DNA from: a virus
Lineage: Duplodnaviria > Heunggongvirae > Uroviricota > Caudoviricetes
IMG/VR virus record: IMGVR_UViG_2541047945_000005
Direction: 5' to 3' (one strand)
Length of the DNA: 37,681 nucleotides
Shown: in pieces, positions 23,701 to 37,681 of the stretch
Layout: each line of letters opens with the position of its first letter
Position numbering within the stretch: the first letter of the stretch is position 1
Notes under the pieces: generated by a model
What the model was told of the DNA's origin: nothing
What the model saw: the letters and a program-made list of their open reading frames with translations, nothing else
Database searches by the model: none
Made by a program: the position numbers and the translations under genes

Positions 23701-24242
23701 GTGGCAATCCCCAGAATCTCGCGACGAAGCGCCTGTACTGCGTCGCTTGACAGTCCCCCCTTACGGGCAATTTTCTCGGCGTTGCTGGCTGCCTGCTGCG
23801 CTCTGGCCCGTACTTCAGACTGGAACTTTTTGAGGTTGACGGACGCGCGGGACAGCGTAGCCACATTCTTCGCCACCTTCGACAGCAGGGCCACGCGTTC
23901 TTTAGGATCGACTTCGCCTTCTTCCGCCTCCTGCAACTGGACAATACTCTCGAACAGCTCGGTCTGAATAAGGGCTATCACAGCCTCCGAACGCGCATCC
24001 TGATCGTCTGCTGCGCCTTCGGTCAGCATGCGGGCCGCTTCTGTTGCCGCACGGATAGCACCATAGCGGCGCTCAATCTTCTGTCCATAGCGATGGATAG
24101 CGGATTTGCTGATGACGTACCCCCGCTCACGCAGCAGGGACTCCAGCTCGTTATACCCGCTGAAGCCGGATTCAGTCAGCGCCCGTTCAAGCCAGCGGCG
24201 CACGTCTTCCGGCAGCTTTTCTATTGTGCTGCGTCTGGCCAT
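23697..24242 (-). CDS. putative terminase small subunit / DNA-binding protein (Mu gp27-like)
   Basis: 181 aa, basic N-terminus, precedes the large terminase. Confidence 0.55.
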   Translation of the reverse strand: MARRSTIEKLPEDVRRWLERALTESGFSGYNELESLLRERGYVISKSAIHRYGQKIERRYGAIRAATEAARMLTEGAADDQDARSEAVIALIQTELFESIVQLQEAEEGEVDPKERVALLSKVAKNVATLSRASVNLKKFQSEVRARAQQAASNAEKIARKGGLSSDAVQALRREILGIAT

Positions 24243-24553
24243 TATTCACTCCAGTACTTTTCCGGGCGGGCAATACCCGGACCACATTCCACGGTGTATT
24301 CCACCAGGTCTACGCCGAGGCGGGTCAGGTCAGCAAACCAGTCGCCAGAAGGTTTTTTCTCCAGATCAACCATTTTACGGTCAGCCAGATAATCCAGTTC
24401 GCGGCGCAGTTCCAGCGGTGTGGTGTCCGGGTAGATGGCACGGGACACATCCAGCAGCAGCGTCTCGCTGGCGGTGTAAGGGCGGGTCTTGTTCAGGGCA
24501 ACCAGCAGACTCCAGCGCAGGGATTCGCGGCGTACCCGGGTAATATCGACCAT
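24242..24553 (-). CDS. conserved hypothetical phage protein
   Basis: 103-aa ORF between lysis cassette and terminase genes. Confidence 0.4.
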   Translation of the reverse strand: MVDITRVRRESLRWSLLVALNKTRPYTASETLLLDVSRAIYPDTTPLELRRELDYLADRKMVDLEKKPSGDWFADLTRLGVDLVEYTVECGPGIARPEKYWSE

Positions 24554-24879
24554 TATTGACCTCCGGTATTGCGGTACTGCTGTACCACTTCCAGTTTGTT
24601 ATAAAGCGCGTCCAGTTTGGCCTCAATGACTGTCTGGCCACGGATATAATCCTCTCGACGGACATAATTCAGCGGTAAATCCGCTTTAAATCGCATAAAT
24701 TCTTTTTCCAGCTCGCCCCAGTTGGAGGCGGATTGTTGCAGGGCCTGTTCAAGGGAGGCGAATCGTGCCGCCTGGCGTTCTTCTGTTTTACTGAACAACC
24801 ATTTGGCGAGCCCTCCCACAAACCCCATGAAGGTGAGCAGAAAACTCACCACCGTCCAGAATTCAACCTGCAGTGTCAT
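24553..24879 (-). CDS. small membrane protein of the lysis cassette (possible releasin-like)
   Basis: 108 aa, N-terminal TM helix, follows the spanin genes. Confidence 0.45.
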   Translation of the reverse strand: MTLQVEFWTVVSFLLTFMGFVGGLAKWLFSKTEERQAARFASLEQALQQSASNWGELEKEFMRFKADLPLNYVRREDYIRGQTVIEAKLDALYNKLEVVQQYRNTGGQ

Positions 24880-25525
24880 TTCTGTAATCCTTCCCGTTCA
24901 TCCAGTAACGCGTTTATCTGGTTCCGCCAGCGACGACATTGTCCTGCGTTGTCGATGATGTTGGCGAGAACGTCACGCTGGGAGACACCCGAATCGCGTA
25001 ACCGGGTGTCAGTGGTTTCAGGTTGCCCGGTCGCTGTGCCAGAGCGGGTGCCAGCGGCGGCAACTGAGTCTGAATGACCGGTGTCGACGGATGCGTTGTC
25101 ATATCCGAGTGCGGCGTTGTACTGGCGCACGAAACCGCGAGTAAACACGCACTCAATGGGATGGCTCTTACCTTTTTCATCAATCCAGCGCTGTGTGACA
25201 TCGTTAATTTGCCCCTGTAGTTGTTTATTCCGGCTCTCCAGTTGAGCAATCTGCTCAAGATAACCGGCTTCAGCCCGCTGCCCGGCGGCCACCTGCTCCT
25301 GATACCGTCTGGCCCAGGCCCGCAGCGCAGCATTCTCAAGCGTTGCCTGCTCCGTTTTGTACGCGTCAAATGCTGACTGCAACTGACTGAGCGCGGTATC
25401 ACCGTCACGCTTTGCAGAGTCATGACCACTTCTGTATCCCATGGCATACAGGCCGACCAGAAAGGCATTGATAAGAATGGCCAGCAGAATGCCGCGCCAC
25501 GGCAGCTTTTTAATCAGATGCCACA
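24876..25525 (-). CDS. i-spanin (Rz-like)
   Basis: N-terminal TM helix then coiled-coil periplasmic domain; start assigned to a GTG with GGAGG upstream; contains an embedded lipoprotein ORF. Confidence 0.6.
24914..25180 (-). CDS. o-spanin (Rz1-like lipoprotein) embedded in the Rz gene in another frame
   Basis: MKKVRAIPLSACLLAVSCAS lipobox signal followed by Pro-rich sequence. Confidence 0.6.
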   Translation of the reverse strand: MKKVRAIPLSACLLAVSCASTTPHSDMTTHPSTPVIQTQLPPLAPALAQRPGNLKPLTPGYAIRVSPSVTFSPTSSTTQDNVVAGGTR

Positions 25526-26250
25526 CAACTGCTGCCTCCCCATGTGAGATATCGCGGTGCCAGTTCGCGCAGGATGCGCTGCGGATAATGGCGGTTCTCC
25601 CGCCAGCTGGCCGCATTGCGTCCGGCATTCACCGTGGCGACATGTCCGAACCAGCGGGTGCTGTCCAGACCTTTCTGTGATGCAAGCCGCCTGTCCCGTT
25701 GTACCCAGCCCAGACCACCGTTATAGCCCGACAGTGTCATGGCCATACGCTCGCAGTCACTGGCGGCGCTGACACGCTGCCACAGCCAGCGGTCATAGCT
25801 GACCAGCGCCCGGATAGCCCATGCCGGATTAAACGGCTCACGACTGCTCAGCATCGGTATCAACTGGCTTATCCAGTCGGCAGTGGCAGGCATGAACTGC
25901 GCCAGTCCCTGAGCGCCAGCCGGCGAGATCGCATCAGGTCGCCAGCCGCTTTCCTGATGCAGTTGCGCGGCGAAATCGGCCACCGGCGCAGACAGTCCCC
26001 ATTCAAGCCGGGCATTACGGATCACATCATCGCGATACTGCAGCGCAGCCTGCGGAGGTTGTGCTGCGCATGCCTGGCTGAAAAAGCCGCCACACCAGAG
26101 CAACATTGCGACAAAGAATACCCATGCCATATGAACCAGAAAGGTCCCGGCGCGGACTGACAGGCGTTCGGTTCTGATGAAGACCCGAAAGGCTTCGAAA
26201 GCCAGTTTCAGGGACATGCATACAATCCAGGTGATCTGCGGCCAGTTCAT
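25510..26250 (-). CDS. endolysin, lytic transglycosylase (SLT-like) with N-terminal signal-anchor
   Basis: QLHQESGWRPDAISPAGAQGLAQFMP matches the SLT active-site region; hydrophobic N-terminal segment. Confidence 0.7.
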   Translation of the reverse strand: MNWPQITWIVCMSLKLAFEAFRVFIRTERLSVRAGTFLVHMAWVFFVAMLLWCGGFFSQACAAQPPQAALQYRDDVIRNARLEWGLSAPVADFAAQLHQESGWRPDAISPAGAQGLAQFMPATADWISQLIPMLSSREPFNPAWAIRALVSYDRWLWQRVSAASDCERMAMTLSGYNGGLGWVQRDRRLASQKGLDSTRWFGHVATVNAGRNAASWRENRHYPQRILRELAPRYLTWGGSSCVASD

Positions 26251-26252
26251 GA

Positions 26253-26603
26253 TTAAAGCCCCATCGCAACAGCCAGGCAGACCGCTGCAACAATCAGTGC
26301 ACGGCGGATTAACGCAGCAGAAAACACCAGGTGAAGGCCGGTCTGTACCGGGAAACGCCCTTCAGCCATCAGCCTGTCGTCATGTTTCAGGTACTGACCG
26401 GGACGGGCTTTGGGGAAGAGCGAACGGTCAAGCCAGTAACCCAGCACTGCTGCCAGCGTGATGAGTGCCAGCTTGTAGATCACAACAGGCAGCTGCTGTG
26501 GTGAGACCAGAGCGATGGTGCCCAGCAACAGCACTGAGGTCAGCAGCCAGCCGCTGAGGCGAGGTTTTTTAACAGGGGGAATGAATTTTTTCAGGTTTTT
26601 CAT
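26253..26603 (-). CDS. holin-like membrane protein
   Basis: About 3 TM helices; start taken at ATG 26603 with GAGGAG upstream (ORF track extends to 26651). Confidence 0.5.
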   Translation of the reverse strand: MKNLKKFIPPVKKPRLSGWLLTSVLLLGTIALVSPQQLPVVIYKLALITLAAVLGYWLDRSLFPKARPGQYLKHDDRLMAEGRFPVQTGLHLVFSAALIRRALIVAAVCLAVAMGL

Positions 26604-26651
26604 GTGTGTCTCCTCGTTTGGTGGAGACAGCATCACAAATACAGGGCGCAA

Positions 26652-26675
26652 AGGATTTTAAAGCGCGTTAAGAGA
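26652..26675 (-). promoter_or_regulatory. conserved late-operon motif, copy 3 (candidate lysis/late promoter)
   Basis: aggATTTTAAAGCGCGTTAAGAGa, 49 nt upstream of the holin ATG. Confidence 0.5.
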
Positions 26676-26733
26676 GCCGGGGATACGGGATGTGCAGGAT
26701 AAACGATGAATTATTCACAGAGGAGAATACGAT

Positions 26734-27210
26734 ATGACGCACACACTGAATCCGGTCATCACTGTCACTGTGTCCGGTCCTGTGGGCAGCGGTAAAAGTT
26801 ACGTACTGGCGCGGATAGAAGAGATGGTGAAACAGGAACTCGGAAACAGCGTCATTGTCGATGCTGCTGACGTGGAGAATGAGCGCCGTATGAATGGCGA
26901 AGATCTGACGACCTGGCAGAAGCCACGGGGTGGCACAGTGATCAGGCTAGAGGAATACACGGGACAGGGCCTGTTGTCATACGGCGAGGAGCGTATCTGT
27001 CGGACGAATGAGCTGCTGGATGTTATATGCCCCACGGGCCGGCAACCCTGGATACTGCCCGATGCACTGCATGCCACCATTGCGGCACTGATGACAGTTT
27101 ACGATCAGGAGCTGCTCATGAAGGAGTTACGTAAACTCACCGGTCAGCCAACAGAATGTTGTTCGTCTCCGAAGTACGGCAAACAGGAAAACGCCCCGGA
27201 TAATCCTTAA
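26734..27210 (+). CDS. small P-loop protein, possibly a kinase-like fold
   Basis: Walker A GPVGSGKS at residues 15-22, acidic VIVDAADVE segment after it; GAGGAG 7 nt before ATG. Confidence 0.6.
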   Translation: MTHTLNPVITVTVSGPVGSGKSYVLARIEEMVKQELGNSVIVDAADVENERRMNGEDLTTWQKPRGGTVIRLEEYTGQGLLSYGEERICRTNELLDVICPTGRQPWILPDALHATIAALMTVYDQELLMKELRKLTGQPTECCSSPKYGKQENAPDNP

Positions 27211-27229
27211 GATACCTCCTGAACAGAAA

Positions 27230-27245
27230 CAGCCCTGAAGGGCTG
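27230..27245. terminator. GC-rich hairpin between convergent genes (putative bidirectional terminator)
   Basis: cagccc-tgaa-gggctg; A-run on plus side, T-rich on minus side. Confidence 0.4.
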
Positions 27246-27247
27246 CA

Positions 27248-27829
27248 CTAAAAAAAGAAGTGTATTATTGCCCAAACAGCTATAACGATGATTCCCAGCC
27301 CAAGAGCCGATTCTAACTTATCTTTGGCAGTCATTTTTACTGTTGTAGCGGGCGCAGGTAAGTCTTGCTGCTGTGGATTTTCTGTTAGTTGTTTACGAGA
27401 AGAAACATCGCCCCTATTAGTTTGCTTCATGTTGATTACAGATGCGTTATGGGCATTATCAGCAGCAATTGACTGAAGTTTTACAAAAGTTTTTGAATCT
27501 GTTTTAGCCAGAAGTAACCTATTTCCCGTAAACATTGCCTTAAAAGTGATAGTTTTTTTCGTCTTGTCCGCCGCACCAAGCAAACCTCCAATGACCAACC
27601 CTGCACCACCAAAGATTAATCCACCAAGCAAACCTGCGCCTGCCGCCTTACCTATACGGCTTTCCTCTTCACTATCCGCAAGTTCAATCGATAAAAGCTC
27701 TTCTTTCAGATTTAATACAATATTTTCAGGAAAGCCTTGTTTTGGTTTTTTGGCAAACACGATGGTACCGAACCCCATGCTTGCCCACCCTTTAGGAAAA
27801 CTTCCTGCGATAACCTGAATCCCTGCCAT
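27248..27829 (-). CDS. glycine-zipper membrane protein with C-terminal anchor, unknown function
   Basis: GKAAGAGLLGGLIFGGAGLVIGGLLGAA and C-terminal LGLGIIVIAVWAIIHFFF; AT-rich; start taken at the third ATG (ORF track 27838). Confidence 0.6.
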   Translation of the reverse strand: MAGIQVIAGSFPKGWASMGFGTIVFAKKPKQGFPENIVLNLKEELLSIELADSEEESRIGKAAGAGLLGGLIFGGAGLVIGGLLGAADKTKKTITFKAMFTGNRLLLAKTDSKTFVKLQSIAADNAHNASVINMKQTNRGDVSSRKQLTENPQQQDLPAPATTVKMTAKDKLESALGLGIIVIAVWAIIHFFF

Positions 27830-27919
27830 GTTCATCACCTTTTACATTAAAATTTCAGAACGCAGCATGATGCCGCCTTTGTCTTTTTTCTGATCCCATG
27901 GTAATTCAGCTGTTATTTT

Positions 27920-28906
27920 CTATTTAAGAATAAAACGGTATTTACTGTCAGGAGTGCTTTGCTGATCAAGTAGCAGTGAACGACATGGAGCAGTCAAAAC
28001 CCGAGCATAACTACCATCAGGGCTTATGTTAATGTAACAAACCTTGCCCTTAACACTATAATTTTCGGGGACGGATGCCTTTGCTGATACAGTAAATTTA
28101 AGGGTATGCCAGCCCGTTTTTTGCTTGTAGCTTGAAACCGAATGGAAATCATCTGAGTACTTATTTAACCCTGGAAACATGCTGCGCAGTGCGGGGATGG
28201 AATCTTCTATTATTTTATCGTTGGTTTTAATGTTAAAAACGCTGGTTTCAGTAGAAGCTACTGCTTTGGCATTTCCCCATTTACCAGCGAACACAATCAT
28301 TCCCACGAAAAATATTGCTACAAGAACTAACACTCCCCCCAACACTACTACATGAGGCTTCCGGCTTCTGGTTGGTACAGTTGCGACTGATTTTGCACCG
28401 CTTTCCGATGGAGGTGATAGAGTTTTACTCTCATCACGAATATTCAGCAGATCATCAAAATAACCAAACACAGCCTGCAACTGCTCTTTGTCTAGGCCTT
28501 TAAGATGGGTTGTACCGAAATGCTTCAGACAGTATCTGTCACGGTCAAGACGATACCCAGGGTCAGTAAGCGCCATTATTTTGCTGACCAGAAGATTACA
28601 GTCCTTCATATTCTGGATCTGTTGTGCATATCTCTGAAGGATCTCAACCGCACCATGATAATCAGCCGCAGTCATTTCATTAACTGTTTTGGTATTAAGT
28701 TTCGTGTGGATCGTCATCCATAGCTCGCGCTTACTTTCCCCCAGATCAACCAATTCATCCATCAATCTGTGTAAATCGCGTTTTTGCAGCAACGAAATTG
28801 GTTGCTGGGCCGAAGGAAGTATGTCAGCAGAATAGTTATGAATGGTAACATCACCGCTGACAACGTTACCCACATCCCCGTTAACTGTTTGCTTCTCTTT
28901 ACTCAT
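27920..28906 (-). CDS. single-pass membrane protein translationally coupled to the repressor, unknown function
   Basis: 328 aa; one TM helix at about residues 176-198; ATGA overlap with the repressor stop; AT-rich. Confidence 0.65.
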   Translation of the reverse strand: MSKEKQTVNGDVGNVVSGDVTIHNYSADILPSAQQPISLLQKRDLHRLMDELVDLGESKRELWMTIHTKLNTKTVNEMTAADYHGAVEILQRYAQQIQNMKDCNLLVSKIMALTDPGYRLDRDRYCLKHFGTTHLKGLDKEQLQAVFGYFDDLLNIRDESKTLSPPSESGAKSVATVPTRSRKPHVVVLGGVLVLVAIFFVGMIVFAGKWGNAKAVASTETSVFNIKTNDKIIEDSIPALRSMFPGLNKYSDDFHSVSSYKQKTGWHTLKFTVSAKASVPENYSVKGKVCYINISPDGSYARVLTAPCRSLLLDQQSTPDSKYRFILK

Positions 28907-29364
28907 CTTCTCTTGGTATTTTTGTTCATTATTCCACCTGTTCCTATGGTTACGTTACCTTTGATAACATTCCCCAGAACATCTCCATGAATAACCTGTT
29001 CCGCCCGTTCTCTGGAGGAGCCAGTAGTCAAGGCCGACAAAACTGAACCTTTGACCTGTAATGGTGCCTGCCGGTAGTGCTGCAGTAACTCCATTTCATC
29101 ACGTGATAAAGTTATACCTGATGACTCCCCGGTAAGAATGAACTGTACATTGGCCCCAATTCTTGCAAAGGCTGCAAGTAACTCACCTCCGGGAACAGCA
29201 ACCCCTCGTTCATATTTCCCCCACATTTCTCTTGAAACGCCACAAAGGGCTGCTACTTCAGCCTGCTTGAGTGATAACCGCGAACGCTCAGCTTTGAACC
29301 GCGACGCGCAAAGAGAATCAAAATTCACATAAACCTCATTGACAATGAGAACAATAGTTCTCAT
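28903..29364 (-). CDS. CI-type (XRE-family HTH) prophage repressor
   Basis: HTH LSLKQAEVAALCGVSREMWGKYERG; divergent from the early operon; no LexA-like peptidase motif seen; alternative GTG start at 29328 with GAGG. Confidence 0.7.
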   Translation of the reverse strand: MRTIVLIVNEVYVNFDSLCASRFKAERSRLSLKQAEVAALCGVSREMWGKYERGVAVPGGELLAAFARIGANVQFILTGESSGITLSRDEMELLQHYRQAPLQVKGSVLSALTTGSSRERAEQVIHGDVLGNVIKGNVTIGTGGIMNKNTKRR

Positions 29365-29367
29365 AAT
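29339..29367 (+). promoter_or_regulatory. candidate early promoter (TTGACA-17-CATAAT) for the Cro-like/transposase operon
   Basis: Sigma70-like hexamers with 17-bp spacer about 45 nt upstream of the Cro-like ATG. Confidence 0.55.
29347..29362. promoter_or_regulatory. palindromic candidate operator GAGAACAATAGTTCTC
   Basis: Perfect 6-bp inverted repeat with 4-bp spacer inside the early promoter spacer. Confidence 0.5.
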
Positions 29368-29374
29368 CTATCAC

Positions 29375-29403
29375 ATATAAAACAAACATCATTGCATCAA
29401 CAA
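29375..29403 (-). promoter_or_regulatory. candidate repressor maintenance promoter (TTGTTG-17-TTATAT), near-leaderless
   Basis: Hexamers on the minus strand; predicted start 2-4 nt before the ATG at 29364. Confidence 0.4.
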
Positions 29404-29414
29404 AGGAGACAACA

Positions 29415-29603
29415 ATGACTTCCGAACAAGTTAAAAATCTCTTCCGTCAGCGTGGTATCACGTTTACCCGCTGGGCCGAAGAACACGGCTACAGCCGCAA
29501 TGAGGTCTATCGTGTTCTCAATGGACAGACCAAAGCTCGTTACGGCAAAGCCCATGAAATTGCCGTAAAACTGGGATTAAAACCCACGTCAAATGCGGCA
29601 TAA
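29415..29603 (+). CDS. small DNA-binding regulator (Cro/Ner functional analogue)
   Basis: 62 aa, first gene of the early operon, AAGGAG 6 nt upstream. Confidence 0.6.
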   Translation: MTSEQVKNLFRQRGITFTRWAEEHGYSRNEVYRVLNGQTKARYGKAHEIAVKLGLKPTSNAA

Positions 29604-29655
29604 ATTTTCCACATATGCAACAGGTTATCACATATTGCAAAAATGGAAATGTGAC

Positions 29656-29964
29656 ATGAGTAAAGTAAATATTTCCAGTTCTGGGACCCGCATCCTACGT
29701 GTACTCAAAGCTCTACGCGGTCATGCTCTGAACGGTGTTTCTAACGGTGAACTGGCATCAGCCCTGGGGGAGTCCCCAGCGAATATCAATCGAGCACTTA
29801 ATACCCTTATTGAAGAGGGACTGGCCATGAAATTAGAGAACGGACGTTTCGCACCGGGAATCCAGTTACTACAGATCGCCATGGCTCACAGTCACGAGAT
29901 GGCGCGTGCACAGGATCGTATTAACGAAATCAACCAACGAGTTATTTCAGGTAGTCGTTTGTAA
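29656..29964 (+). CDS. winged-helix DNA-binding protein, unknown role
   Basis: LRVLKALRGHALNGVSNGELASALGESPANINRALNTLIEEGL resembles a wHTH; start taken at an internal ATG. Confidence 0.45.
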   Translation: MSKVNISSSGTRILRVLKALRGHALNGVSNGELASALGESPANINRALNTLIEEGLAMKLENGRFAPGIQLLQIAMAHSHEMARAQDRINEINQRVISGSRL

Positions 29965-29974
29965 GGAGTAATCA

Positions 29975-30889
29975 ATGGGACGCACCAAATCACCCGTTAA
30001 CACTGAACTGAATGTTGAGGTTCCGCTGTCAGATAACATCAATGTCAATTTGAACGCTATGACACAGCATCGCATGGAAATTATGCAGCAGTTTGGTGAT
30101 GGACTGCCTTATGAACGTGATCGCATTGTTCACGAAGCACGTTTTTATATGGCGCAGAGTGCTGAATCTATGCTGGAAGCGGGTAAGCGGCTGATCATCT
30201 TAAAAGAAAATGAGCCACACGGTGATTTTACAAACATTTTAGAAAATGAACTCGGACTTGCACCACAAGTTGCTCGCCGCATGATGCAAGCCAGTATGAA
30301 GTTTTTGGGAGAAGGTGATGAGCCAACAAAACGCTCAACGTTGAGCGTTTTGGGGAAAGCCAAACTGTACGACCTGATGGTTCTGGATAATGAAGAACTT
30401 GATGAATTGGCCGACGGCGGCACAGTTGCCGGCCTGACGCTTGACGACGTTGATCGCATGTCAGTACGTGAATTGCGTCAGGCCCTGCGCGAAGCGCGCG
30501 AAACCAACGCAGCACAACAGCGCGTACTCGCTGACAAAAATGAAAAAATAGACTCACTCTCCACCAGACTGGAGAAGAAATCCCGTATTCAGCCGCCTGA
30601 GCCTGATGAAGAGGTTAAGAAGCTGCGGGCGGAAGTGACAGCATTAGCGGTTGAGGCGGAATCTGCTATCGCCGTTCGACTGTCCAGCGCTTTTGAGACG
30701 CTGTGCGCATATTGTGCTGAAAACATGATTGATACCCCCAGAGACTTCATGGCAGGCCTGGTCTGTCAACTGGAAAGCACAGCGCGTAGCCTGCGCTCCA
30801 CATTTGACCTGCCGGATGAGCCAACAGGCAATGCCGCGCCTTCATGGCTGACTGAGCCGACGCCACAGATTAACGGGCTGGAGGCATAA
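29975..30889 (+). CDS. hypothetical early protein with coiled-coil region
   Basis: 304-aa ORF with AAGGAG RBS immediately upstream of the transposase. Confidence 0.45.
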   Translation: MGRTKSPVNTELNVEVPLSDNINVNLNAMTQHRMEIMQQFGDGLPYERDRIVHEARFYMAQSAESMLEAGKRLIILKENEPHGDFTNILENELGLAPQVARRMMQASMKFLGEGDEPTKRSTLSVLGKAKLYDLMVLDNEELDELADGGTVAGLTLDDVDRMSVRELRQALREARETNAAQQRVLADKNEKIDSLSTRLEKKSRIQPPEPDEEVKKLRAEVTALAVEAESAIAVRLSSAFETLCAYCAENMIDTPRDFMAGLVCQLESTARSLRSTFDLPDEPTGNAAPSWLTEPTPQINGLEA

Positions 30890-30892
30890 CCA

Positions 30893-32662
30893 ATGAATGC
30901 TGCCCTGACTGAACGACTGGTTTATGTCGCCCGCGCGGCACGTGACGCGGGGCATGGTAAACGCGGTGCAATATACGACGCTGCCTGTGCTGAACTTGGC
31001 ATGTCCCGCGCCACTCTGCTGCGCAGGCTGAAGGAGGTCTCTGTGACTGATAAACGCAAAAAACGCGCTGATGCCGGACGCAGCGCCCTGACCCGCGACG
31101 AAGCCGCGCTGATATCTGCCACACTGCGTGAGGCCACCCGCAAGAACGGTAAACGCCTCTATTCCATCGCAGATGCAGTGGAAACCCTGCGGGCTAACGG
31201 CTTTATCACCGCAGGCAGAACAGATGAAACCACCGGTGAGTTTTTCCCGTTGTCTGAAGATGCCATCAGCCGTGCTCTGCGTAACTATGGCCTGCACCCG
31301 GAACAACTGGATGCTCCTGCACCGCATACCGAAGTGGCCAGTCTGCACCCCAATCATGTCTGGCAGATTGACGCCTCACTCTGCACGCTTTACTACCTGA
31401 GCAATGGACATAAAGGGCTGCAGGTGATGGACAGCGCGAAGTTCTACAAGAACAAGCCCGCTAACCTTGCCCGTATCGCCAGTGACCGCGTGTGGAGTTA
31501 CGAGATTACCGACCATGCCAGCGGCTGGATTTACGTTGAGTATGTGACGGGCGCGGAATCAGGTGAGAACCTGTGTTCTGTGCTTATCAACGCCATGCAG
31601 GAGCGTGGCGGCGCAGACGTGCTGCACGGCGTGCCAAAAATACTCTATCTCGACCCCGGCTCGGCAAACACCGCGGGTATGACGAAAAACATGTGCCGCT
31701 CACTGGGCATCGACCTGATAGCGCACAAGCCGCATAACGCCCGCGCCACCGGACAGGTGGAAAAGGCGCGGGACATTATCGAACGCAAGCTGGAGCCGGG
31801 TCTGAAGTTCCGGCCGGTTCACAGTCTGGAAGAACTCAATGCGCTGGCCGCGAAATGGCGCAGCCACTTTAACGCCACGGCTGTTCACAGCCGCCACGGT
31901 AAAACCCGCACGGATATCTGGCTGAAGATTACTGCTGAGCAGCTGAAAAAAGCGCCTTCCGTTGAGGTATGTCGTGAACTGGCTGTGGCGGCACCAGAAC
32001 TCCGCAAAGTCACGCCAAAACTTCGTGTCTCGTTCCGGGGCACTGAATTTGACGTATCAACGGTACCGGGCGTACTGGTCGGTGAAAAACTGATGATTAC
32101 CCGTAACCCGTGGCGCAGCGATGTGGCACAGGTGGTTCTGACCGGTGAGGACGGCCACGAGACGTTCTTCCTGGTCGAAGAAGTCAGAAAGAACGAGTTT
32201 GGCTTTGCTGAAGGCGCGGCGGTATTTGGCGAAAGTTACAAAGCCCTGCCGGAAACCCCGGCGCAGATGGCGGCAAAAGAAACCGAAGCGCTGGTCACCG
32301 GTACAGACAACGCCGCAGATGCAGCTGCCGCACGCAAGGCGAAGGCGCTGCCGTTCGGCGGGCGGCTTGACCCATATAAACATATTGATGACGCCACACT
32401 TCCGGCCTATATGCCGAAGCGAGGTCAGGCCTCTGACGTACGCGGGCCGCGCACTGAACAACGTCCCATGACTCATGTGGAGGCCGCGAAAGCCCTGCGC
32501 GATAAGTTCAGCGCCGACGGCCTTACCTGGACGCCGGAACATTACCGCCAGTTAACGGCACAGTATCCGGACGGCGTACCGGAAGCCGCACTGGATGAAG
32601 TCATGGCCACGCTGACCACGCCGGCCCGCAGCAGCGTTATCAGCATTGTTAACGGCAACTGA
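30893..32662 (+). CDS. DDE transposase (Mu A-like, integrase-core fold)
   Basis: N-terminal HTH, WQIDAS ... YLDPGS ... QVEKA candidate DDE triad; followed by an AAA+ partner. Confidence 0.75.
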   Translation: MNAALTERLVYVARAARDAGHGKRGAIYDAACAELGMSRATLLRRLKEVSVTDKRKKRADAGRSALTRDEAALISATLREATRKNGKRLYSIADAVETLRANGFITAGRTDETTGEFFPLSEDAISRALRNYGLHPEQLDAPAPHTEVASLHPNHVWQIDASLCTLYYLSNGHKGLQVMDSAKFYKNKPANLARIASDRVWSYEITDHASGWIYVEYVTGAESGENLCSVLINAMQERGGADVLHGVPKILYLDPGSANTAGMTKNMCRSLGIDLIAHKPHNARATGQVEKARDIIERKLEPGLKFRPVHSLEELNALAAKWRSHFNATAVHSRHGKTRTDIWLKITAEQLKKAPSVEVCRELAVAAPELRKVTPKLRVSFRGTEFDVSTVPGVLVGEKLMITRNPWRSDVAQVVLTGEDGHETFFLVEEVRKNEFGFAEGAAVFGESYKALPETPAQMAAKETEALVTGTDNAADAAAARKAKALPFGGRLDPYKHIDDATLPAYMPKRGQASDVRGPRTEQRPMTHVEAAKALRDKFSADGLTWTPEHYRQLTAQYPDGVPEAALDEVMATLTTPARSSVISIVNGN

Positions 32663-32672
32663 GGAGGGATAC

Positions 32673-33839
32673 ATGCTGGTACTGAAGCAGCAACTGAAAG
32701 AGGCCCGTATTCCACAGGCGGTGGTGGCGAGAGCTGTCGATGTTTCTGAGGCCACGCTGGCCCAGATTGTGAATCATAACGCGTGGCCCCGCACCAGCCC
32801 CGGAGAAGTGCGCCGGCGTCTTGCGTCCTGGCTGGAAAGTCAGGGGATTGATACAACGAAGAGTTTTGATGCTGTACAGGGCGCGGCCACGCCCCGTACA
32901 GCGGGTACCACAGATAAAACGAGCCTCAGTGAGGAAGAGAATATGTTACTCAAAAAACAGGTGTTATTTCCAGCAACCAAAAAAGCGTTTGGTCTTTTCC
33001 GTGACCCGTTCGCCGACGAAGCCATGCAGGGTTCTGATGATGTGTTCACCACTCCGGACATTCGCTACGTGCGTGAGGCGCTGTACCAGACAGCCCGTCA
33101 TGGTGGGTTTATGGCCGTCATCGGTGAGTCCGGTGCGGGTAAATCCACGCTGCGCCGTGACCTGACTGAACGTATCAACCGCGAGAATGCGCCGGTGATT
33201 GTTATCGAGCCATACATCATCGCTATGGAAGACAACGATGTGAAAGGGAAAACCCTGAAGGCAGCAGCGATTGCCGAAGCCATTATCAGTACCATCGCAC
33301 CACTGGAAAGCATCAGACGCAGTCAGGACGCCCGCTTTCGCCAGCTGCATCGCGTCCTGAAAGACAGCAGCCAGGCGGGGTTCAGCCACGTTCTGGTGAT
33401 TGAGGAGGCCCACAGTCTGCCCATTCCGACACTGAAACACCTCAAACGCTTTTTTGAGCTGGAGTCCGGTTTCAAAAAACTGCTGTCCATCGTGCTGATT
33501 GGCCAGCCGGAACTGGCGACAAAACTGTCTGAACGCAATATGGAAGTCCGTGAAGTCGTTCAGCGCTGTGAGGTGGTCGAACTTCTGCCTCTGGACAATA
33601 ACCTTGAAGAGTTTCTGACGTTCAAACTGCAACGGGCCGGTAAACAACTGACGGACATTATGGACGCCAGCGCAGTGGATGCCATACGTGCCCGCCTGAG
33701 CAATCCGGGAAGTCATCGTAAAAATATGGTCAGCCTGCTGTATCCGCTGGCCGTCAGTAACCTGGTAATAGCCGCCATGAATCTGGCCGCTGAAATCGGG
33801 GTTCCACAGGTCAACGCTGACGTTGTCAAAGGGGTTTAA
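32673..33839 (+). CDS. transposition ATPase (Mu B-like AAA+)
   Basis: Walker A GESGAGKST, Walker B VLVIEEAH; GGAGGG RBS; ORF track starts at a TTG at 32646. Confidence 0.75.
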   Translation: MLVLKQQLKEARIPQAVVARAVDVSEATLAQIVNHNAWPRTSPGEVRRRLASWLESQGIDTTKSFDAVQGAATPRTAGTTDKTSLSEEENMLLKKQVLFPATKKAFGLFRDPFADEAMQGSDDVFTTPDIRYVREALYQTARHGGFMAVIGESGAGKSTLRRDLTERINRENAPVIVIEPYIIAMEDNDVKGKTLKAAAIAEAIISTIAPLESIRRSQDARFRQLHRVLKDSSQAGFSHVLVIEEAHSLPIPTLKHLKRFFELESGFKKLLSIVLIGQPELATKLSERNMEVREVVQRCEVVELLPLDNNLEEFLTFKLQRAGKQLTDIMDASAVDAIRARLSNPGSHRKNMVSLLYPLAVSNLVIAAMNLAAEIGVPQVNADVVKGV

Positions 33840-33841
33840 TA

Positions 33842-34111
33842 ATGAAATCCACCACAGGTATCAACCAGCAAATCAGCAAAGTGCAGTCAGCCATTATGGC
33901 GCTTAAGGCGACGAACACGGATGTACAAAGCATCACCATCAGGGGTAACAAACCTGTCATCCGCGTTTCCCGGAGTGCGCATTGCATGCGCATGCTTGAG
34001 CAGGGAAAGGCCTGTTATCTGTATACCGGACATGACCACAGGGGATATTTCCGTCAGGGCGTTTTCGAACTGCACGGCTGTCGCGTCGTGTGGCCGGAAT
34101 CTTTGTGGTAA
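33842..34111 (+). CDS. hypothetical small protein (position of Mu kil)
   Basis: 89-aa ORF between the B-like and Gam-like genes. Confidence 0.35.
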   Translation: MKSTTGINQQISKVQSAIMALKATNTDVQSITIRGNKPVIRVSRSAHCMRMLEQGKACYLYTGHDHRGYFRQGVFELHGCRVVWPESLW

Positions 34112-34138
34112 TCAGCACAACTGGAGAAATCATAAAAA

Positions 34139-34669
34139 ATGGCAAAAAGTACAAAAGGTGCAAAACGTATCAAGGCCGCAGCAGCACTCTGGGTGCCGGG
34201 GACACGTGAAGAGGTCATTGAGGGAATCAGACTACTCGGTGACGCACAACGTGAACTGGTCAGGGCTGAAACAGAAATGAATGACGCCATTGGCGATATC
34301 ACCGCACGTTATGCCCCGCTCACCGAGAGCCTGAAAAAACGCATGGCCGAACTGCAGTCCGGTATTCAGACATGGTGTGAGGCACACCGTGATGAACTGA
34401 CCGGCAACGGGAAGGTGAAGTTCGCTAACCTCACCACCGGCGAGGTGCAGTGGCGAAACCGTCCGCCATCAGTCAGTATCCGTGGGGCGGATAATGTTAT
34501 TGAATTACTGAGACGTCTGGGGCTTGAGCGCTTTATTCGTGTAAAAGAGGAAATAAATAAAGACGCTATCCTGAATGAAAAAGAGGCCGTGAAAAATATT
34601 CCCGGTATTTCCATTAAAAGCGACATTGAGGATTTTTCAATAATTCCTTTTGAGCAGGATGTGCAGTAA
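34139..34669 (+). CDS. gam: Gam-like host-nuclease inhibitor
   Basis: 176 aa; segments such as ETEMNDAI, WCEA.RDELT, RPPSVSIRG and SIIPFEQ match Mu Gam as I recall it. Confidence 0.8.
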   Translation: MAKSTKGAKRIKAAAALWVPGTREEVIEGIRLLGDAQRELVRAETEMNDAIGDITARYAPLTESLKKRMAELQSGIQTWCEAHRDELTGNGKVKFANLTTGEVQWRNRPPSVSIRGADNVIELLRRLGLERFIRVKEEINKDAILNEKEAVKNIPGISIKSDIEDFSIIPFEQDVQ

Positions 34670-34766
34670 ACACACCACGTTAATTATTTAATAAAAACAT
34701 TTTCTTTTTTATTCCGGCGTCAGCGCCGCGGGCTTCTGCACGCCGGAAACAGAGGAGAATTAAATC

Positions 34767-34961
34767 ATGATATTTAAATGTATTCAGTGCGAGAGGGATA
34801 TAACAGCCCTGCGTTTTCACAGCGCCATCGCCGTGATGTCCGGTAAATACCACATCCCTGCGGTACGCGTCACCCTGGTCTGCCCGTACTGCAGCCAGCA
34901 TTTTTCGGCAGACGTGCCCGTCATGGAATTCTCCCGCCCTGACAGGGAGGACTCGCAATGA
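34767..34961 (+). CDS. small zinc-ribbon protein
   Basis: CIQC ... CPYC pairs; GAGGAG RBS. Confidence 0.45.
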   Translation: MIFKCIQCERDITALRFHSAIAVMSGKYHIPAVRVTLVCPYCSQHFSADVPVMEFSRPDREDSQ

Positions 34962-35230
34962 TTACCCCACAGGAAGCACGACAGCGCACCCGAACCCTTG
35001 TTGAACACTATGTCAACGAGTGTGAATGCCGCGACCTCACCGATGTGAAGCACGTCCTGACGGCGCTAATCAGCATGACCGCTCAGGCCATTGTGGCGAC
35101 CAACGGAAAGGCGGCTGCCCTGCAGGTACTGGTGAACACACTCACCCACACGGCAGAGCATGAGGTGCCGTACCGGATGGAAACCACTGCAGAAGGCGGC
35201 CTGCACATCACCGTCAGCCGGAAGCACTGA
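34958..35230 (+). CDS. hypothetical protein
   Basis: 90-aa ORF, ATGA coupling to the upstream gene. Confidence 0.4.
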   Translation: MITPQEARQRTRTLVEHYVNECECRDLTDVKHVLTALISMTAQAIVATNGKAAALQVLVNTLTHTAEHEVPYRMETTAEGGLHITVSRKH

Positions 35231-35239
35231 GGGCGCGGC

Positions 35240-35536
35240 ATGACACGGAACACCATACTCACCCGCACCGCCCTCTACCGTCTGGCCCTGCAGCGTTTCG
35301 GGCCGGACGCACAGGCCCTGAAACTGACAGAAGAGGCCGCTGAACTGGCGGCCAGTGCTGCCCGCAATCTGAACGGACAGGGCAGCGAAAGTGACCTCGC
35401 GGCAGAGCTGGCAGACGTGGAAATCATGACAGAGCAATTGCGCCTTCAGGGGATGGACCGGCTGATTGACTTCCACAAACAGAAAAAACTGGAACGTCTG
35501 GCTGCACGACTGGGCGTGATTTACACGAACGAGTAA
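35240..35536 (+). CDS. small all-alpha protein, possibly MazG-like
   Basis: EEAAELAASAAR ... ELADVEIM pattern resembles MazG-type pyrophosphohydrolases; weak. Confidence 0.35.
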   Translation: MTRNTILTRTALYRLALQRFGPDAQALKLTEEAAELAASAARNLNGQGSESDLAAELADVEIMTEQLRLQGMDRLIDFHKQKKLERLAARLGVIYTNE

Positions 35537-35550
35537 CCGGGAGGCATTCA

Positions 35551-36878: not shown

Positions 36879-37320
36879 ACAACGTCTTATCCAGCTCATT
36901 CATATTGCCCGTAATGAACTGGGTATGGATGAAGACACCTACCGCCAGATGTTACAGGGGCTGACCGGTAAAGCCTCAACCAAAGGAATGGATACCACAC
37001 AACTAAACTGCGTGCTGGAATCCATGAAAAGGAAAGGCTTTCGCGTTAAGCCTGCCGGAAAAGCCAGCTCCGGTTTACCGCTGGATAACCATCCGCAGTC
37101 CAGGAAAATCCGTGCGCTATGGCTTGAAATGGCTGCTGCCGGCATTGTTCGTGACCGTTCAGAAAATGCATTAGCGCGGTGGATCAAGCGGGAAACGGGC
37201 ATCAGCGCCCTGCGCTGGCTCAATACTGAACAGGCAAGCAGTGTTATTGAGAAACTGAAGAAGTGGCAGCACAGAGCTGCGGGAGTAAAACATGAGCGAC
37301 CTGAATCAGTTTCGAAGTAA
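36868..37320 (+). CDS. GemA-like protein (Mu gp16-like)
   Basis: Position directly upstream of Mor; AAAGGAG RBS. Confidence 0.5.
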   Translation: MMTKQRLIQLIHIARNELGMDEDTYRQMLQGLTGKASTKGMDTTQLNCVLESMKRKGFRVKPAGKASSGLPLDNHPQSRKIRALWLEMAAAGIVRDRSENALARWIKRETGISALRWLNTEQASSVIEKLKKWQHRAAGVKHERPESVSK

Positions 37321-37681
37321 AGGGCCGGAACTCCTGGTGGAACTGGCACAGCATACCTCTGAGACCGTTCGCGAGATTATTGATATTGAGCCCGCAATTG
37401 CCGACCAGATTGGTCAGGCCGTCGCGAACCGCATGATGCAGGTCTGGGGCGGGCAAAACGTTTATTTCCCGATGGGCATGGTATGGAAGGTCAGTCAGCG
37501 CGACCGGGAAATCTTCAGGGAGTTTAACGGACGTAACCACCATGAACTGGCCCGCAAATTTGGTGTTTCGCTTCAGTGGGTCTACAGCGTGGTTAAGCGG
37601 GTAAGAAAAGAAGAACTGGATCGGATGCAGGGCAAGCTATTTGCTGATGAACCCGATGTAGATACGGAGAAAAAAGAGTAA
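37292..37681 (+). CDS. mor: Mor-like middle-operon transcriptional activator
   Basis: 129 aa (the length of Mu Mor), C-terminal HTH (ELARKFGVSLQWVYSVVKR), last gene of the early block. Confidence 0.65.
   Translation: MSDLNQFRSKGPELLVELAQHTSETVREIIDIEPAIADQIGQAVANRMMQVWGGQNVYFPMGMVWKVSQRDREIFREFNGRNHHELARKFGVSLQWVYSVVKRVRKEELDRMQGKLFADEPDVDTEKKE

What the first reader, a model, noticed from the sequence alone, without database searches (positions are those of the whole stretch)
26603..29415. Early module inverted relative to the late module around a central lambda-type immunity region
In canonical Mu, early and late genes are all transcribed rightward from the left end. Here late genes run leftward and early genes rightward from a shared central region, so neither phage end is near the repressor. 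The repressor is an XRE/CI-type HTH protein paired with a small Cro-like protein, not the Mu c/Ner pair. An inverted early region has been reported for Pseudomonas phage B3, but this window has Mu/P2-type tail and baseplate genes and enterobacterial GC. This points to a mosaic transposable-phage lineage.
Basis: partly seen in the sequence, partly recalled or inferred. Interest (0 to 1): 0.55.

Follow-up and report, generated by a model that had tools for sequence, protein, structure and literature searches.

The report
Known BcepMu-type prophage immunity region
The "inverted" early/late layout is the normal, already published genome plan of BcepMu/B3-type transposable phages, seen here in a common E. 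coli prophage; the one new lead is that the repressor's tail repeats the first residues of the membrane protein encoded right after it.

Summary
Late genes run leftward (554-26603) and early genes rightward (29415-37681) from a 2.8-kb centre that holds an XRE-type repressor and a divergent 62-aa regulator. It is not a new lineage. The window is collinear with Burkholderia phage BcepMu (about 36 of 49 proteins, same order and relative strands). It is 93% identical, where alignable, to Escherichia phage PhiKM (NCBI genus Bcepmuvirus). An inverted early operon is the published hallmark of B3/BcepMu-type transposable phages. Related E. coli genomes show one element with TG...CA ends and a 6-bp (not 5-bp) target duplication at five independent sites. 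It occurs in about 11% of complete E. coli genomes, so it is neither a chimera nor a misassembly. This copy carries ISEc23 in its head protease gene and is probably defective. The centre is a swapped, low-GC immunity cassette: repressor, a Flk-like membrane protein and a glycine-zipper membrane protein, apparently one operon. One unplanned lead: the repressor's disordered C-terminal tail repeats the disordered N-terminus of the next protein, and the motif changes in step across about 22-27 diverse lineages. A SinR/SinI-like repressor-partner contact is the most novel reading. It is untested.

The parts
26253..26603 (-). Holin, first gene of the leftward lysis/late block
   Evidence: Pfam PF13272 Holin_2-3, E 1.6e-41; 52% identical to BcepMu gp21
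26734..27210 (+). 158-aa P-loop ORF, a 3'-truncated version of a 242-aa PhiKM gene; the left boundary of the swapped cassette lies at about 27199
   Evidence: phrog_3787, E 2e-107; 92% identical to PhiKM; PhiKM DNA similarity stops at window position ~27198; full-length PhiKM ORF
27229..27246 (-). Terminator-like hairpin just after the 196-aa gene; inferred end of the repressor operon
   Evidence: Consensus scan, 7-bp stem with 5 GC pairs then a T-rich tail. Function is inferred.
27248..27838 (-). 196-aa membrane protein with a glycine-zipper TM and a C-terminal TM; third gene of the repressor operon, function unknown
   Evidence: Translation; phrog_12025 full length, E 2e-128; no Pfam, PADLOC, NCBIfam or PDB match
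27920..28906 (-). 328-aa 'partner' protein: N-terminal motif, Flk-like helical cytoplasmic domain, one TM (~186-208), and a C-terminal alpha/beta domain with two invariant Cys. Its start codon overlaps the repressor stop (ATGA).
   Evidence: Translation; NF007987 Flk, E 2.9e-12 over residues 19-147; AF2 model; homologue alignment
28838..28894 (-). Partner N-terminal motif KQTVNGDVGNVVSGDVTIH (aa 5-23)
   Evidence: Coordinates; the most conserved stretch of the family; pLDDT below 50 in the monomer model
28903..29364 (-). Repressor, 153 aa: XRE-type HTH (17-78), two helices (88-113), disordered tail (117-153)
   Evidence: Pfam HTH_31/HTH_3; 39% identical to BcepMu gp17 and 36% to B3 ORF18; AF2 model
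28942..29001 (-). Repressor tail motif EQVIHGDVLGNVIKGNVTIG (aa 122-141), matching the partner N-terminus in 11 of 19 residues
   Evidence: tested across lineages
29339..29367 (+). Candidate early promoter TTGACA-17-CATAAT (11 of 12 matches), overlaid by the palindrome TGAGAAC-aata-GTTCTCA (29346-29363), a candidate operator
   Evidence: promoter conserved in L105, L128 and L139, and L128 has a different but still palindromic sequence. Function is inferred.
29415..29603 (+). 62-aa first early gene, BcepMu gp16 family (called 'ner-like' in the literature)
   Evidence: TIGR04111, 94 bits; 73% identical to B3 ORF17 and 45% to BcepMu gp16
29656..29964 (+). Winged-helix (IclR-type HTH) early regulator
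   Evidence: Pfam HTH_IclR; phrog_1368; 57% identical to B3 ORF14
29975..30889 (+). DUF3102 early protein (BcepMu gp10 / B3 ORF13 equivalent)
   Evidence: Pfam DUF3102
30893..32662 (+). Transposase with an rve (DDE) core; not MuA-like
   Evidence: Pfam rve; 69% identical to BcepMu gp09 and 57% to B3; no Mu hit; best NCBIfam match IS481 family
32673..33839 (+). AAA+ ATPase (ExeA-type), the transposition helper analogous to MuB
   Evidence: Pfam AAA_22; 59% identical to BcepMu gp08
37292..37681 (+). Mor/C-family activator, last early gene; its stop codon is the last base of the window
   Evidence: 54% identical to BcepMu gp01 and 31% to Mu Mor; PGAP annotation of identical copies

Best explanation
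The interval is the immunity (lysogeny-maintenance) module of a BcepMu-type transposable myophage lysogenised in E. coli. The divergent early/late layout is the normal plan of that family, not a rearrangement. Shown: the gene content, order and orientation, and the single-element status. Inferred working model: in the lysogen a leftward operon is transcribed. It comprises the XRE-type repressor, a translationally coupled Flk-like membrane protein and a glycine-zipper membrane protein, and it ends at a hairpin at 27229-27246. The repressor is proposed to bind a palindrome that overlaps a near-consensus rightward promoter (29339-29367) and so silence the early operon. That operon runs gp16-family regulator, winged-helix regulator, DUF3102, rve-type transposase, AAA+ helper, Gam, GemA, Mor. 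On derepression the transposase would replicate the element by transposition, making 6-bp target duplications. Mor would then switch on the leftward lysis, Mu-like head and P2-like tail genes, which start at the holin just beyond the cassette. The roughly 2.2-kb low-GC cassette (about 27199-29400) is an exchangeable immunity allele that differs from the one in PhiKM and KP12.
For: Collinearity with BcepMu: about 36 of 49 window proteins have tblastn matches in the same order and relative orientation, at 31-76% identity. Mu matches only about 10, and none for transposase, B protein, repressor or Ner. The BcepMu annotation shows the identical layout, including a membrane protein overlapping the repressor stop. 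The closest record is Escherichia phage PhiKM, classified in Bcepmuvirus, at 93% identity but covering only 67% of window 26000-33000 because the centre differs. The gp16-family membership is above the curated cutoff. Five independent insertions (lom, prpR, beside ycaL, irp1, between torZ and cmoB) share the termini 5'-TGATGCGCC...TCTAATCA-3' and 6-bp duplications ATGTGC, CCGACG, GAAGAA, ACTTGC and CACCGA. G(C/A)GATAAATG boxes lie 12-21 nt from both tips. The same centre is contiguous at 99.7-100% identity in many complete genomes; 125 cover at least 80% of 24000-33000, and the left end is found in 597 of 5426 genomes. Promoter and palindrome. Literature: the B3-like organisation is an inverted early operon (PMC5977238). 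In the B3-like phage Fc02 the repressor and the gene after it are co-transcribed in the lysogen, and the ner-like operon fires on induction (PMC9936078). BcepMu has TG...CA ends, an Rve/Tn552-like transposase and a P2-like tail end (PMC2628397).
Against: DNA similarity to BcepMu itself is low: about 69% identity over 22% of a 7-kb query. Genus-level membership therefore rests on PhiKM's NCBI classification, not on a test done here. This phage has a Gin-type invertible tail-fibre segment and a Mu-like Gam. BcepMu gave no tblastn match to Gam, and PMC2628397 says it has no invertible region. The repressor's own promoter was not found by the consensus scan. Operator, promoter, terminator and operon structure are predictions. 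No expression, binding or transposition data exist for this element. This copy has ISEc23 in the head protease gene, so it may not be inducible to plaque-forming phage.
Confidence: 0.92

Rival explanations
1. Two separate elements are joined in the window, or the 27-29 kb low-GC stretch is a misassembly.
For: GC drops from about 0.55-0.60 to 0.43-0.46 across 27-30 kb. The stretch is absent from PhiKM, KP12, BcepMu and B3.
Against: The same junctions occur at 99.7-100% identity in many independently assembled complete genomes. The element has one pair of ends and one 6-bp duplication at each of five sites. The low-GC block includes the repressor itself and sits where BcepMu and B3 carry their own repressor plus partner. 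It is an allelic immunity cassette, not a foreign junction.
Confidence: 0.01
2. It is a Mu (Muvirus) derivative whose early region was recently inverted.
For: Shared Mu-like head genes (TerL 49%, F 47%, portal 27%), Gam 62%, GemA, Mor, and a Gin-type invertible fibre segment.
Against: There is no detectable similarity to MuA, MuB, c or Ner. The tail is P2-like with no Mu tail matches. The duplication is 6 bp, not 5 bp. The whole genome is collinear with BcepMu instead.
Confidence: 0.02
3. The match between the repressor tail and the partner N-terminus marks a direct, specific contact. The membrane-anchored partner would bind, tether or titrate the repressor through a shared strand-forming peptide, as SinI does with SinR. 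This would tune the lysis-lysogeny switch or couple an exclusion function to repressor status.
For: Cognate tail versus N-terminus scores exceed non-cognate scores (mean 34.3 against 20.3 over 51 dereplicated pairs, 0 of 10000 permutations; within the 22 motif-bearing pairs 51.7 against 28.3, 0 of 20000). z-scores against composition-preserving shuffles are 5-15. At least six motif subtypes are each matched within their own pair. Repressor alleles without the tail (PhiKM, Fc02) have unrelated downstream genes. Both copies lie in termini predicted to be disordered. The motif is the most conserved part of the partner. Partner bodies behind the motif are diverse, as expected for an adaptor peptide. 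Nucleotide identity of the two copies (59.6%) is no higher than amino-acid identity (11 of 19), which argues against recent gene conversion. Precedents: SinI/SinR (PMC3163267) and AimX/AimC (bioRxiv 10.1101/2025.11.23.689978).
Against: There is no binding evidence of any kind, and no multimer prediction was possible. Against the partner of the nearest relative, the cognate wins only 12 of 22 times, so the matching is at subfamily level. The lineages are related, so there are fewer independent events than pairs. No repressor-partner fusion proteins were found in 160 loci. The tail-partner co-inheritance seen is expected from physical adjacency alone.
Confidence: 0.35
4. The shared motif does not mediate contact between the two proteins. 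Either both proteins carry the same signal read by a third party (a protease degron, a chaperone or a membrane-targeting factor), or it is a tolerated remnant of local duplication at the gene junction that travels with the cassette.
For: The two copies are only 107 nt apart, so slippage or duplication is mechanistically easy. The tail ends in a Lys/Arg-rich stretch typical of terminal degradation or binding tags. By my recollection, Mu repressor stability is controlled through its C-terminus by ClpXP (established knowledge, not tested here). Adjacency explains the co-inheritance.
Against: A neutral remnant should decay independently in the two genes. Instead the motif is the best-conserved part of the partner and is kept matched in at least six divergent subtypes.
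Confidence: 0.3

Closest known systems
Burkholderia phage BcepMu (Bcepmuvirus; Summer et al. 2004) and its enterobacterial relatives SalMu and PhotoMu
   Same: Same whole-genome plan: the early operon diverges from repressor + membrane protein + lysis + Mu-like head + P2-like tail. Also shared: rve/Tn552-like transposase (69% identical), gp16-family first early gene, TG...CA ends, Mor and GemA at the distal end of the early operon (PMC2628397, PMC3417384).
   Different: Only protein-level similarity (31-76%). This phage has a Gin-type invertible fibre segment and a Mu-like Gam. Its immunity cassette is different: the partner is Flk-like with a periplasmic domain, and a third membrane gene follows. 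The host is E. coli.
Escherichia phage PhiKM (PQ738613) and Klebsiella phage KP12 (OM835952)
   Same: 96-100% protein identity for most structural and early genes in PhiKM; same genome plan.
   Different: They are heteroimmune. PhiKM has a 118-aa repressor without the tail motif and carries a Dam methylase and other cargo where this window has the partner and the 196-aa gene.
Pseudomonas phage B3 (Beetrevirus) and Fc02
   Same: Inverted early operon. Homologous early genes: gp16-family regulator 73%, winged-helix regulator 57%, DUF3102 51%, transposase 57%, B protein 55%. B3 ORF18/ORF20 also share the tail/N-terminus motif.
   Different: B3 has a siphovirus tail, and there are no tblastn matches for the tail genes. 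Fc02's repressor lacks the tail, and its downstream gene e4 is a lipoprotein.
Escherichia phage Mu (Muvirus)
   Same: Transposable temperate myophage with Mu-like head genes, Gam, GemA, Mor, and an invertible fibre segment with a Gin-like invertase.
   Different: In Mu all genes except c are transcribed in one direction from the left end. Mu has MuA/MuB, c and Ner, none of which is detectably related here, and Mu makes a 5-bp rather than a 6-bp duplication.
Lambda cI-rexA-rexB operon and the CI/Cro switch
   Same: An XRE-type repressor divergent from a small early regulator, with membrane or exclusion-type genes co-transcribed downstream of the repressor in the lysogen. This is an analogy by position. 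Co-transcription is shown for Fc02 (PMC9936078).
   Different: No S24 autocleavage domain, no Cro homology, no sequence similarity to RexA or RexB, and no PADLOC hit.
SinR/SinI (Bacillus) and the arbitrium AimC/AimX pair
   Same: An XRE-type repressor whose C-terminal association element is shared with, or targeted by, a protein encoded next to it (PMC3163267; bioRxiv 10.1101/2025.11.23.689978).
   Different: In those systems the element is a folded helical domain and the antagonist is a small soluble protein under separate control. Here it is a ~19-residue Gly/Val/Asn-rich peptide in a disordered tail, and the partner is usually a membrane protein translated from the same operon. Binding is not shown.

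Membership tests
BcepMu-type transposable phages (Bcepmuvirus-like) | Early operon transcribed away from the repressor + lysis + head + tail block | tested here: met
   same order and relative strands as BcepMu genes 1-52
BcepMu-type transposable phages (Bcepmuvirus-like) | rve/Tn552-like transposase plus ExeA-type AAA+ helper instead of MuA/MuB | tested here: met
   Pfam rve and AAA_22; 69% and 59% identity to BcepMu gp09 and gp08, no Mu match
BcepMu-type transposable phages (Bcepmuvirus-like) | gp16-family small DNA-binding protein as the first early gene, divergent from an XRE repressor | tested here: met
   TIGR04111, 94 bits against a cutoff of 34; repressor 39% identical to gp17
BcepMu-type transposable phages (Bcepmuvirus-like) | 5'-TG...CA-3' termini and near-random insertion with a short target duplication | tested here: met
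   Tested on related E. coli copies, not on the window, which lacks the ends. TGAT...ATCA termini and 6-bp duplications at five sites; many different flanking genes
BcepMu-type transposable phages (Bcepmuvirus-like) | Mu-like head module with P2-like contractile tail and baseplate | tested here: met
   tblastn to BcepMu gp27-gp52; PGAP names on near-identical copies: sheath, tube, gpD, V, W, J, I, X, Mu F/G, DUF935
BcepMu-type transposable phages (Bcepmuvirus-like) | Genus-level nucleotide relatedness to the type species | tested here: inconclusive
   Only about 69% identity over 22% of a 7-kb query to BcepMu itself; NCBI places the 93%-identical PhiKM in Bcepmuvirus
BcepMu-type transposable phages (Bcepmuvirus-like) | Replicative transposition and packaging with host DNA at the ends | not testable with these tools
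   Needs induction and sequencing of virion DNA; this copy has an IS in the head protease gene
Muvirus (Mu, D108, SfMu) | MuA/MuB transposition proteins and c/Ner regulators | tested here: not met
   No tblastn match; BLASTP E 1.3 and 6.7
Muvirus (Mu, D108, SfMu) | Repressor at the left end with all other genes transcribed in one direction; 5-bp duplication | tested here: not met
   The repressor lies about 9 kb from the nearer end; the layout is divergent; the duplication is 6 bp
Beetrevirus (B3-like) | B3-type early region | tested here: met
   51-73% identity for five consecutive early proteins
Beetrevirus (B3-like) | B3-type siphovirus tail module | tested here: not met
   No tblastn match for any tail protein
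Lambda-type CI/Cro immunity | XRE-HTH repressor divergent from a small early regulator | tested here: met
Lambda-type CI/Cro immunity | S24 (LexA-like) autocleavage domain giving SOS induction | tested here: not met
   Pfam finds only HTH_31/HTH_3; the AF2 model shows an HTH, two helices and a disordered tail
Lambda-type CI/Cro immunity | Shared operators overlapping divergent promoters | tested here: inconclusive
   One strong rightward promoter with an overlapping palindrome, conserved in relatives; the leftward promoter was not identified
SinR/SinI-type antagonism | Partner shares the repressor's C-terminal association element | tested here: met
   Sequence level only:
SinR/SinI-type antagonism | Heteromer formation that changes DNA binding | not testable with these tools
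   No multimer prediction or experiment was available
Known anti-phage defence systems (PADLOC) | Match of the cargo proteins to a defence-system model | tested here: not met
   No hit for the 196-aa and 328-aa proteins; only marginal hits for the 158-aa protein

The most novel reading that the evidence does not exclude
In many BcepMu/B3-type transposable phages, the repressor's disordered C-terminal tail and the N-terminus of the membrane protein translated right after it form a matched, lineage-specific recognition pair. This pair would tether the master repressor to, or titrate it with, a membrane-anchored partner. That would be a membrane-linked, SinI/SinR-like input into the lysis-lysogeny switch of phages whose repressors lack a RecA-cleavable domain. 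Alternatively, repressor status would arm an exclusion effector.
Probability: 0.35. Interest if true: 0.6.

Novelty: already known. Interest (0 to 1): 0.25.

Why it matters
The finding as stated adds little. It re-identifies the published genome plan of BcepMu/B3-type transposable phages in a prophage found in roughly one in nine complete E. coli genomes. Three practical points do follow. First, such prophages should be annotated as BcepMu-type, with 6-bp duplications and TGAT...ATCA ends, which gives exact boundaries for prophage callers. Second, the central cassette is an exchangeable immunity allele that carries lysogen-expressed membrane genes of unknown function, which makes them candidates for exclusion or defence. 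Third, how HTH-only repressors of transposable phages sense induction signals is poorly understood. The matched repressor-tail/partner motif gives a concrete and cheap hypothesis to test.

Tried and rejected
- **PADLOC, Pfam and NCBIfam on the cargo genes:** nothing for the 196-aa protein; only a sub-threshold Flk match for the 328-aa protein; only marginal P-loop hits for the 158-aa ORF.
- **PDB sequence search of the 196-aa protein:** nothing.
- **tblastn of the partner against 50,697 phage records:** only a weak match (24% identity) to the periplasmic domain in KP12 and Phi06_2974 B.
- **Rfam on the whole window:** no family.
- **Search for natural repressor-partner fusions:** none. The long 'repressors' in my table were mis-picked partner or cargo ORFs.
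- **Tail-tracks-partner analysis:** real, but discounted because the two segments are adjacent in the DNA.
- **Consensus scan for the repressor's own promoter:** none found.
- **Literature searches for PF27202 and for a described repressor/downstream-gene motif:** nothing found. The library does not hold Summer et al. 2004 (J Mol Biol), so its statements are cited second-hand.
- **Hypotheses rejected:** an LexA-like Ala-Gly cleavage site in the 'AGRD' motif variants, because no S24 domain is present and the window's own motif lacks AG; and recent gene conversion between the two motif copies, because nucleotide identity (59.6%) is no higher than protein identity.

Full report
**1. Checking the observation.**

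The ORF map shows a continuous minus-strand block from the tail fibre (554-2059) to a holin (26253-26603; PF13272, E 1.6e-41). The only interruption is a three-ORF plus-strand insert at 16.6-19.1 kb. A continuous plus-strand block runs from 29415 to 37681.

The flagged interval 26603-29415 is exactly the gap between the first late gene and the first early gene. It contains four genes:
- a 158-aa plus-strand ORF (26734-27210);
- a 196-aa minus-strand ORF (27248-27838);
- a 328-aa minus-strand ORF (27920-28906);
- a 153-aa minus-strand ORF (28903-29364).

The 153-aa protein is an XRE-type HTH protein (Pfam HTH_31 and HTH_3). It has no S24 peptidase domain. The divergent 62-aa protein (29415-29603) belongs to NCBIfam TIGR04111, 'BcepMu gp16 family' (94 bits, cutoff 34). 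Neither protein resembles Mu c or Mu Ner. GC falls to 0.42-0.46 across the repressor and the two genes after it, against 0.545 for the window.

**2. What the element is.**

A blastn search of 26000-33000 against 50,697 phage records found these matches:
- Escherichia phage PhiKM: 93% identity, 67% coverage;
- Klebsiella phage KP12 and Escherichia phage Phi06_2974 B;
- Burkholderia phages phiE255 and BcepMu and Pseudomonas phage B3, at about 68-69% over the transposase region.

Mu was not among the hits listed (the top 25 of 65). NCBI classifies PhiKM in Bcepmuvirus.

The BcepMu annotation shows the layout of this window in mirror image. Genes 1-16 (Mor, GemA ... B, transposase, gp10 ... gp16) run one way. 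Running the other way are gp17 (the cI-like repressor), gp18 (a membrane protein whose start overlaps the gp17 stop), the lysis genes, Mu-like head genes and P2-like tail genes.

A tblastn table of 49 window proteins against four genomes gave these results:
- **BcepMu:** about 36 matches, in the same order and relative orientation, at 31-76% identity.
- **B3:** matches to the early genes and some head genes, none to the tail.
- **Mu:** about 10 matches (TerL, portal, F, G, Gam, GemA, Mor and fragments). There was none for transposase, B protein, repressor or Ner.

The literature describes this plan explicitly:
- The divergent repressor/ner-like region is shared by B3-like and other transposable phages (PMC9936078).
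- BcepMu has TG...CA ends, an Rve/Tn552-like transposase and a P2-like right end (PMC2628397).
- BcepMu relatives exist in Salmonella Typhi and Photorhabdus (PMC3417384, citing Summer et al. 2004).

The architecture is therefore already known, including in enterobacteria.

**3.

The window lacks both ends. It begins next to the invertase gene and ends on the Mor stop codon. That leaves 651 and 161 nt missing relative to the copy in strain LC-1302-2020. I therefore used related complete E. coli genomes.

The region 24000-33000 is present at 99.7-100% identity in many genomes. At least 80% of it is covered in 125 of 5426 genomes. The left end is present in 597 genomes and the right end in 533, next to many different host genes.

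All five independent insertions share the termini 5'-TGATGCGCC...TCTAATCA-3'. Each shows a 6-bp direct duplication:

| Insertion site | Strain(s) | Duplication |
|---|---|---|
| lom of a lambdoid prophage | CE10, IAI39 | ATGTGC |
| prpR | LC-1302-2020 | CCGACG |
| irp1 | MS20675 | ACTTGC |
| between torZ and cmoB | cS51a | CACCGA |

The tips are imperfect inverted repeats (15 of 25 positions identical). G(C/A)GATAAATG boxes lie 12-21 nt from both tips, and the left end has a second copy.

This is one transposable element, not two joined elements and not a misassembly. The duplication is 6 bp rather than Mu's 5 bp. By my recollection, the Tn552/IS481-type rve transposases that this enzyme resembles make duplications of about that size. 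The resemblance itself is supported by NCBIfam's best match to IS481.

**4. Anatomy and likely working of the centre.**

Relative to PhiKM, DNA similarity stops at about 27198 and resumes at the gp16-family gene. PhiKM has a different 118-aa repressor and different cargo, including a Dam methylase. The block from about 27199 to 29400 is therefore an exchangeable immunity allele.

Within that block:
- The repressor stop overlaps the start of the 328-aa gene (ATGA at 28903-28906).
- The 196-aa gene follows after about 90 nt.
- A hairpin with a T-rich tail lies at 27229-27246.

I infer a single lysogenic operon. Direct evidence for co-transcription of a repressor with its downstream gene exists only for the B3-like phage Fc02 (PMC9936078).

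A near-consensus rightward promoter, TTGACA-17-CATAAT (29339-29367), is overlaid by the palindrome TGAGAAC-aata-GTTCTCA. The promoter is conserved in relatives with this immunity type. One relative (L128) has a different but still palindromic sequence at the same place. This fits an operator whose specificity has diverged. Repression of this promoter by the 153-aa protein is an inference.

**5. The cargo proteins.**

The 328-aa protein has these parts:
- an N-terminal peptide of about 30 residues with low model confidence;
- a confident helical cytoplasmic domain (31-160);
- one TM segment;
- a confident C-terminal alpha/beta domain with two invariant cysteines.

Residues 19-147 match Flk at E 2.9e-12, below the equivalog cutoff. 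Flk is a membrane-anchored inhibitor of the flagellar secretion switch. [quoted passage not shown]

The 196-aa protein has a glycine-zipper TM and a C-terminal TM. It has no family beyond a PHROG of unknown function. None of the cargo proteins matches a PADLOC defence model convincingly.

**6. An unplanned observation inside the interval.**

The repressor's C-terminal tail (EQVIHGDVLGNVIKGNVTIG, aa 122-141) resembles the partner's N-terminus (KQTVNGDV-GNVVSGDVTIH, aa 5-23). Eleven of 19 residues are identical.

BcepMu gp17/gp18 and B3 ORF18/ORF20 show the same relationship, each with a different motif.

To test this I collected 160 loci, using the gp16-family gene as anchor. The results were:
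- 92 loci have an ORF starting within -100 to +60 nt of the repressor stop. These reduce to 51 dereplicated pairs.
- About 22-27 pairs show a significant tail-to-N-terminus match (z 5-15 against shuffles).
- Cognate pairs score 34.3 on average and non-cognate pairs 20.3 (0 of 10000 permutations).
- Within the motif-bearing set the figures are 51.7 and 28.3 (0 of 20000).

At least six motif subtypes occur, each matched within its own pair: GNRVAGRDY, QVFxGxxxGxxAGRDIxN, GDNAIQIGxVxG, GDVxGNVxxGxVTI, QQFNNxxISxSxF and GGQAAGRDIV.

Further observations:
- Repressor alleles without a tail (PhiKM, Fc02) are followed by unrelated genes.
- Both copies of the motif lie in termini predicted to be disordered.
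- The partner bodies behind the motif are diverse: Flk-like with a C-terminal TM, zinc ribbon with two TMs, two TMs alone, or small and soluble.

Caveats:
- The matching is at subfamily level. Against the partner of the nearest relative, the cognate partner wins only 12 of 22 times.
- The lineages are related, so the pairs are not independent events.
- The tail and the partner are adjacent in the DNA, so their co-inheritance is expected anyway.
- No fused proteins were found.
- No binding data exist.

The nearest mechanistic precedents are SinI/SinR and AimX/AimC. In both, a neighbouring protein engages the repressor's C-terminal association element (PMC3163267; bioRxiv 10.1101/2025.11.23.689978). 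I found no description of this motif pair in the searchable literature.

**7. Verdict.**

- **Observation:** confirmed.
- **Interpretation:** partly supported. The genome is a mosaic relative to Mu and lacks the Mu regulators. However, the lineage and its layout are already known, and the duplication is 6 bp.
- **Novelty of the finding as stated:** already known; interest is low.
- **Most novel reading not excluded:** the matched repressor-tail/partner motif is a real recognition pair. I give this a probability of about 0.35. It would be moderately interesting if true, because it would suggest how these HTH-only repressors are wired to the cell envelope.

Noticed in passing
window 16575-19106: ISEc23 (IS66 family; tnpA 16660-17085, tnpB 17082-17432, tnpC 17463-19076) is inserted with an 8-bp target duplication about 20 nt inside the 5' end of the head protease/scaffold gene (15476-16606, minus). 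This prophage copy is probably defective. The same insertion is present in strain LC-1302-2020.
   Followed up: yes
window ~64-639 (inverted repeats ~64-106 and ~600-639): A Gin-type invertible tail-fibre segment lies in the opposite orientation to the copy in LC-1302-2020. As a result the fibre ORF here is 501 aa, and its alternative C-terminal part (72-575) reads on the plus strand. The invertase gene lies just left of the window start. BcepMu is reported to lack such a segment (PMC2628397).
   Followed up: partly
window ~1000-1830: The tail-fibre gene contains tandem repeats of about 300 bp. This shows as ORF periodicity at 1031-1330, 1331-1630 and 1631-1891, and as offset blast hits at 94-98% identity.
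   Followed up: no
window 28838-28894 and 28942-29001; loci L018-L087, L155, BcepMu (L002), B3 (L007): The repressor C-terminal tail and the N-terminus of the next-encoded protein share a ~19-residue motif. The motif differs between lineages but matches within each pair.
   Followed up: yes
window 26734-27210: The 158-aa P-loop ORF is a 3'-truncated copy of a 242-aa gene in PhiKM (L001 31457-32185). The truncation point coincides with the left edge of the swapped low-GC immunity cassette.
   Followed up: partly
window 27248-27838; L019, L137, L144-L146: The 196-aa glycine-zipper membrane protein has homologues that sit close to the gp16-family gene in other enterobacterial prophages, so it seems to move as an independent cargo gene.
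   Followed up: no
window 29365-29384, 29603-29622, 29626-29635: TATCACATAT / CCACATATG boxes flank the 62-aa gene on both sides, 238-257 nt apart. They may be a second set of regulator-binding sites. The first box lies in a 5' leader that is nearly invariant among relatives.
   Followed up: no
L003 (CE10) and L005 (IAI39): The CE10 and IAI39 copies of this prophage sit inside the lom gene of a lambdoid prophage (a prophage within a prophage). Several of their genes carry internal stops: DUF3486/TerS, GPW and a small tail gene.
   Followed up: no
alignment A4 (repressor homologues P0045-P0056 versus P0040, P0044, P0047): Repressors are chimeric. The same tail occurs behind two different HTH domains, and the same HTH occurs in front of different tails. 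This places recombination breakpoints between the HTH and the C-terminal region.
   Followed up: partly
window 27920-28906: Some database homologues of the 328-aa protein carry a precomputed Pfam tag, PF27202. My Pfam copy did not report it, and no paper in the library mentions it.
   Followed up: no
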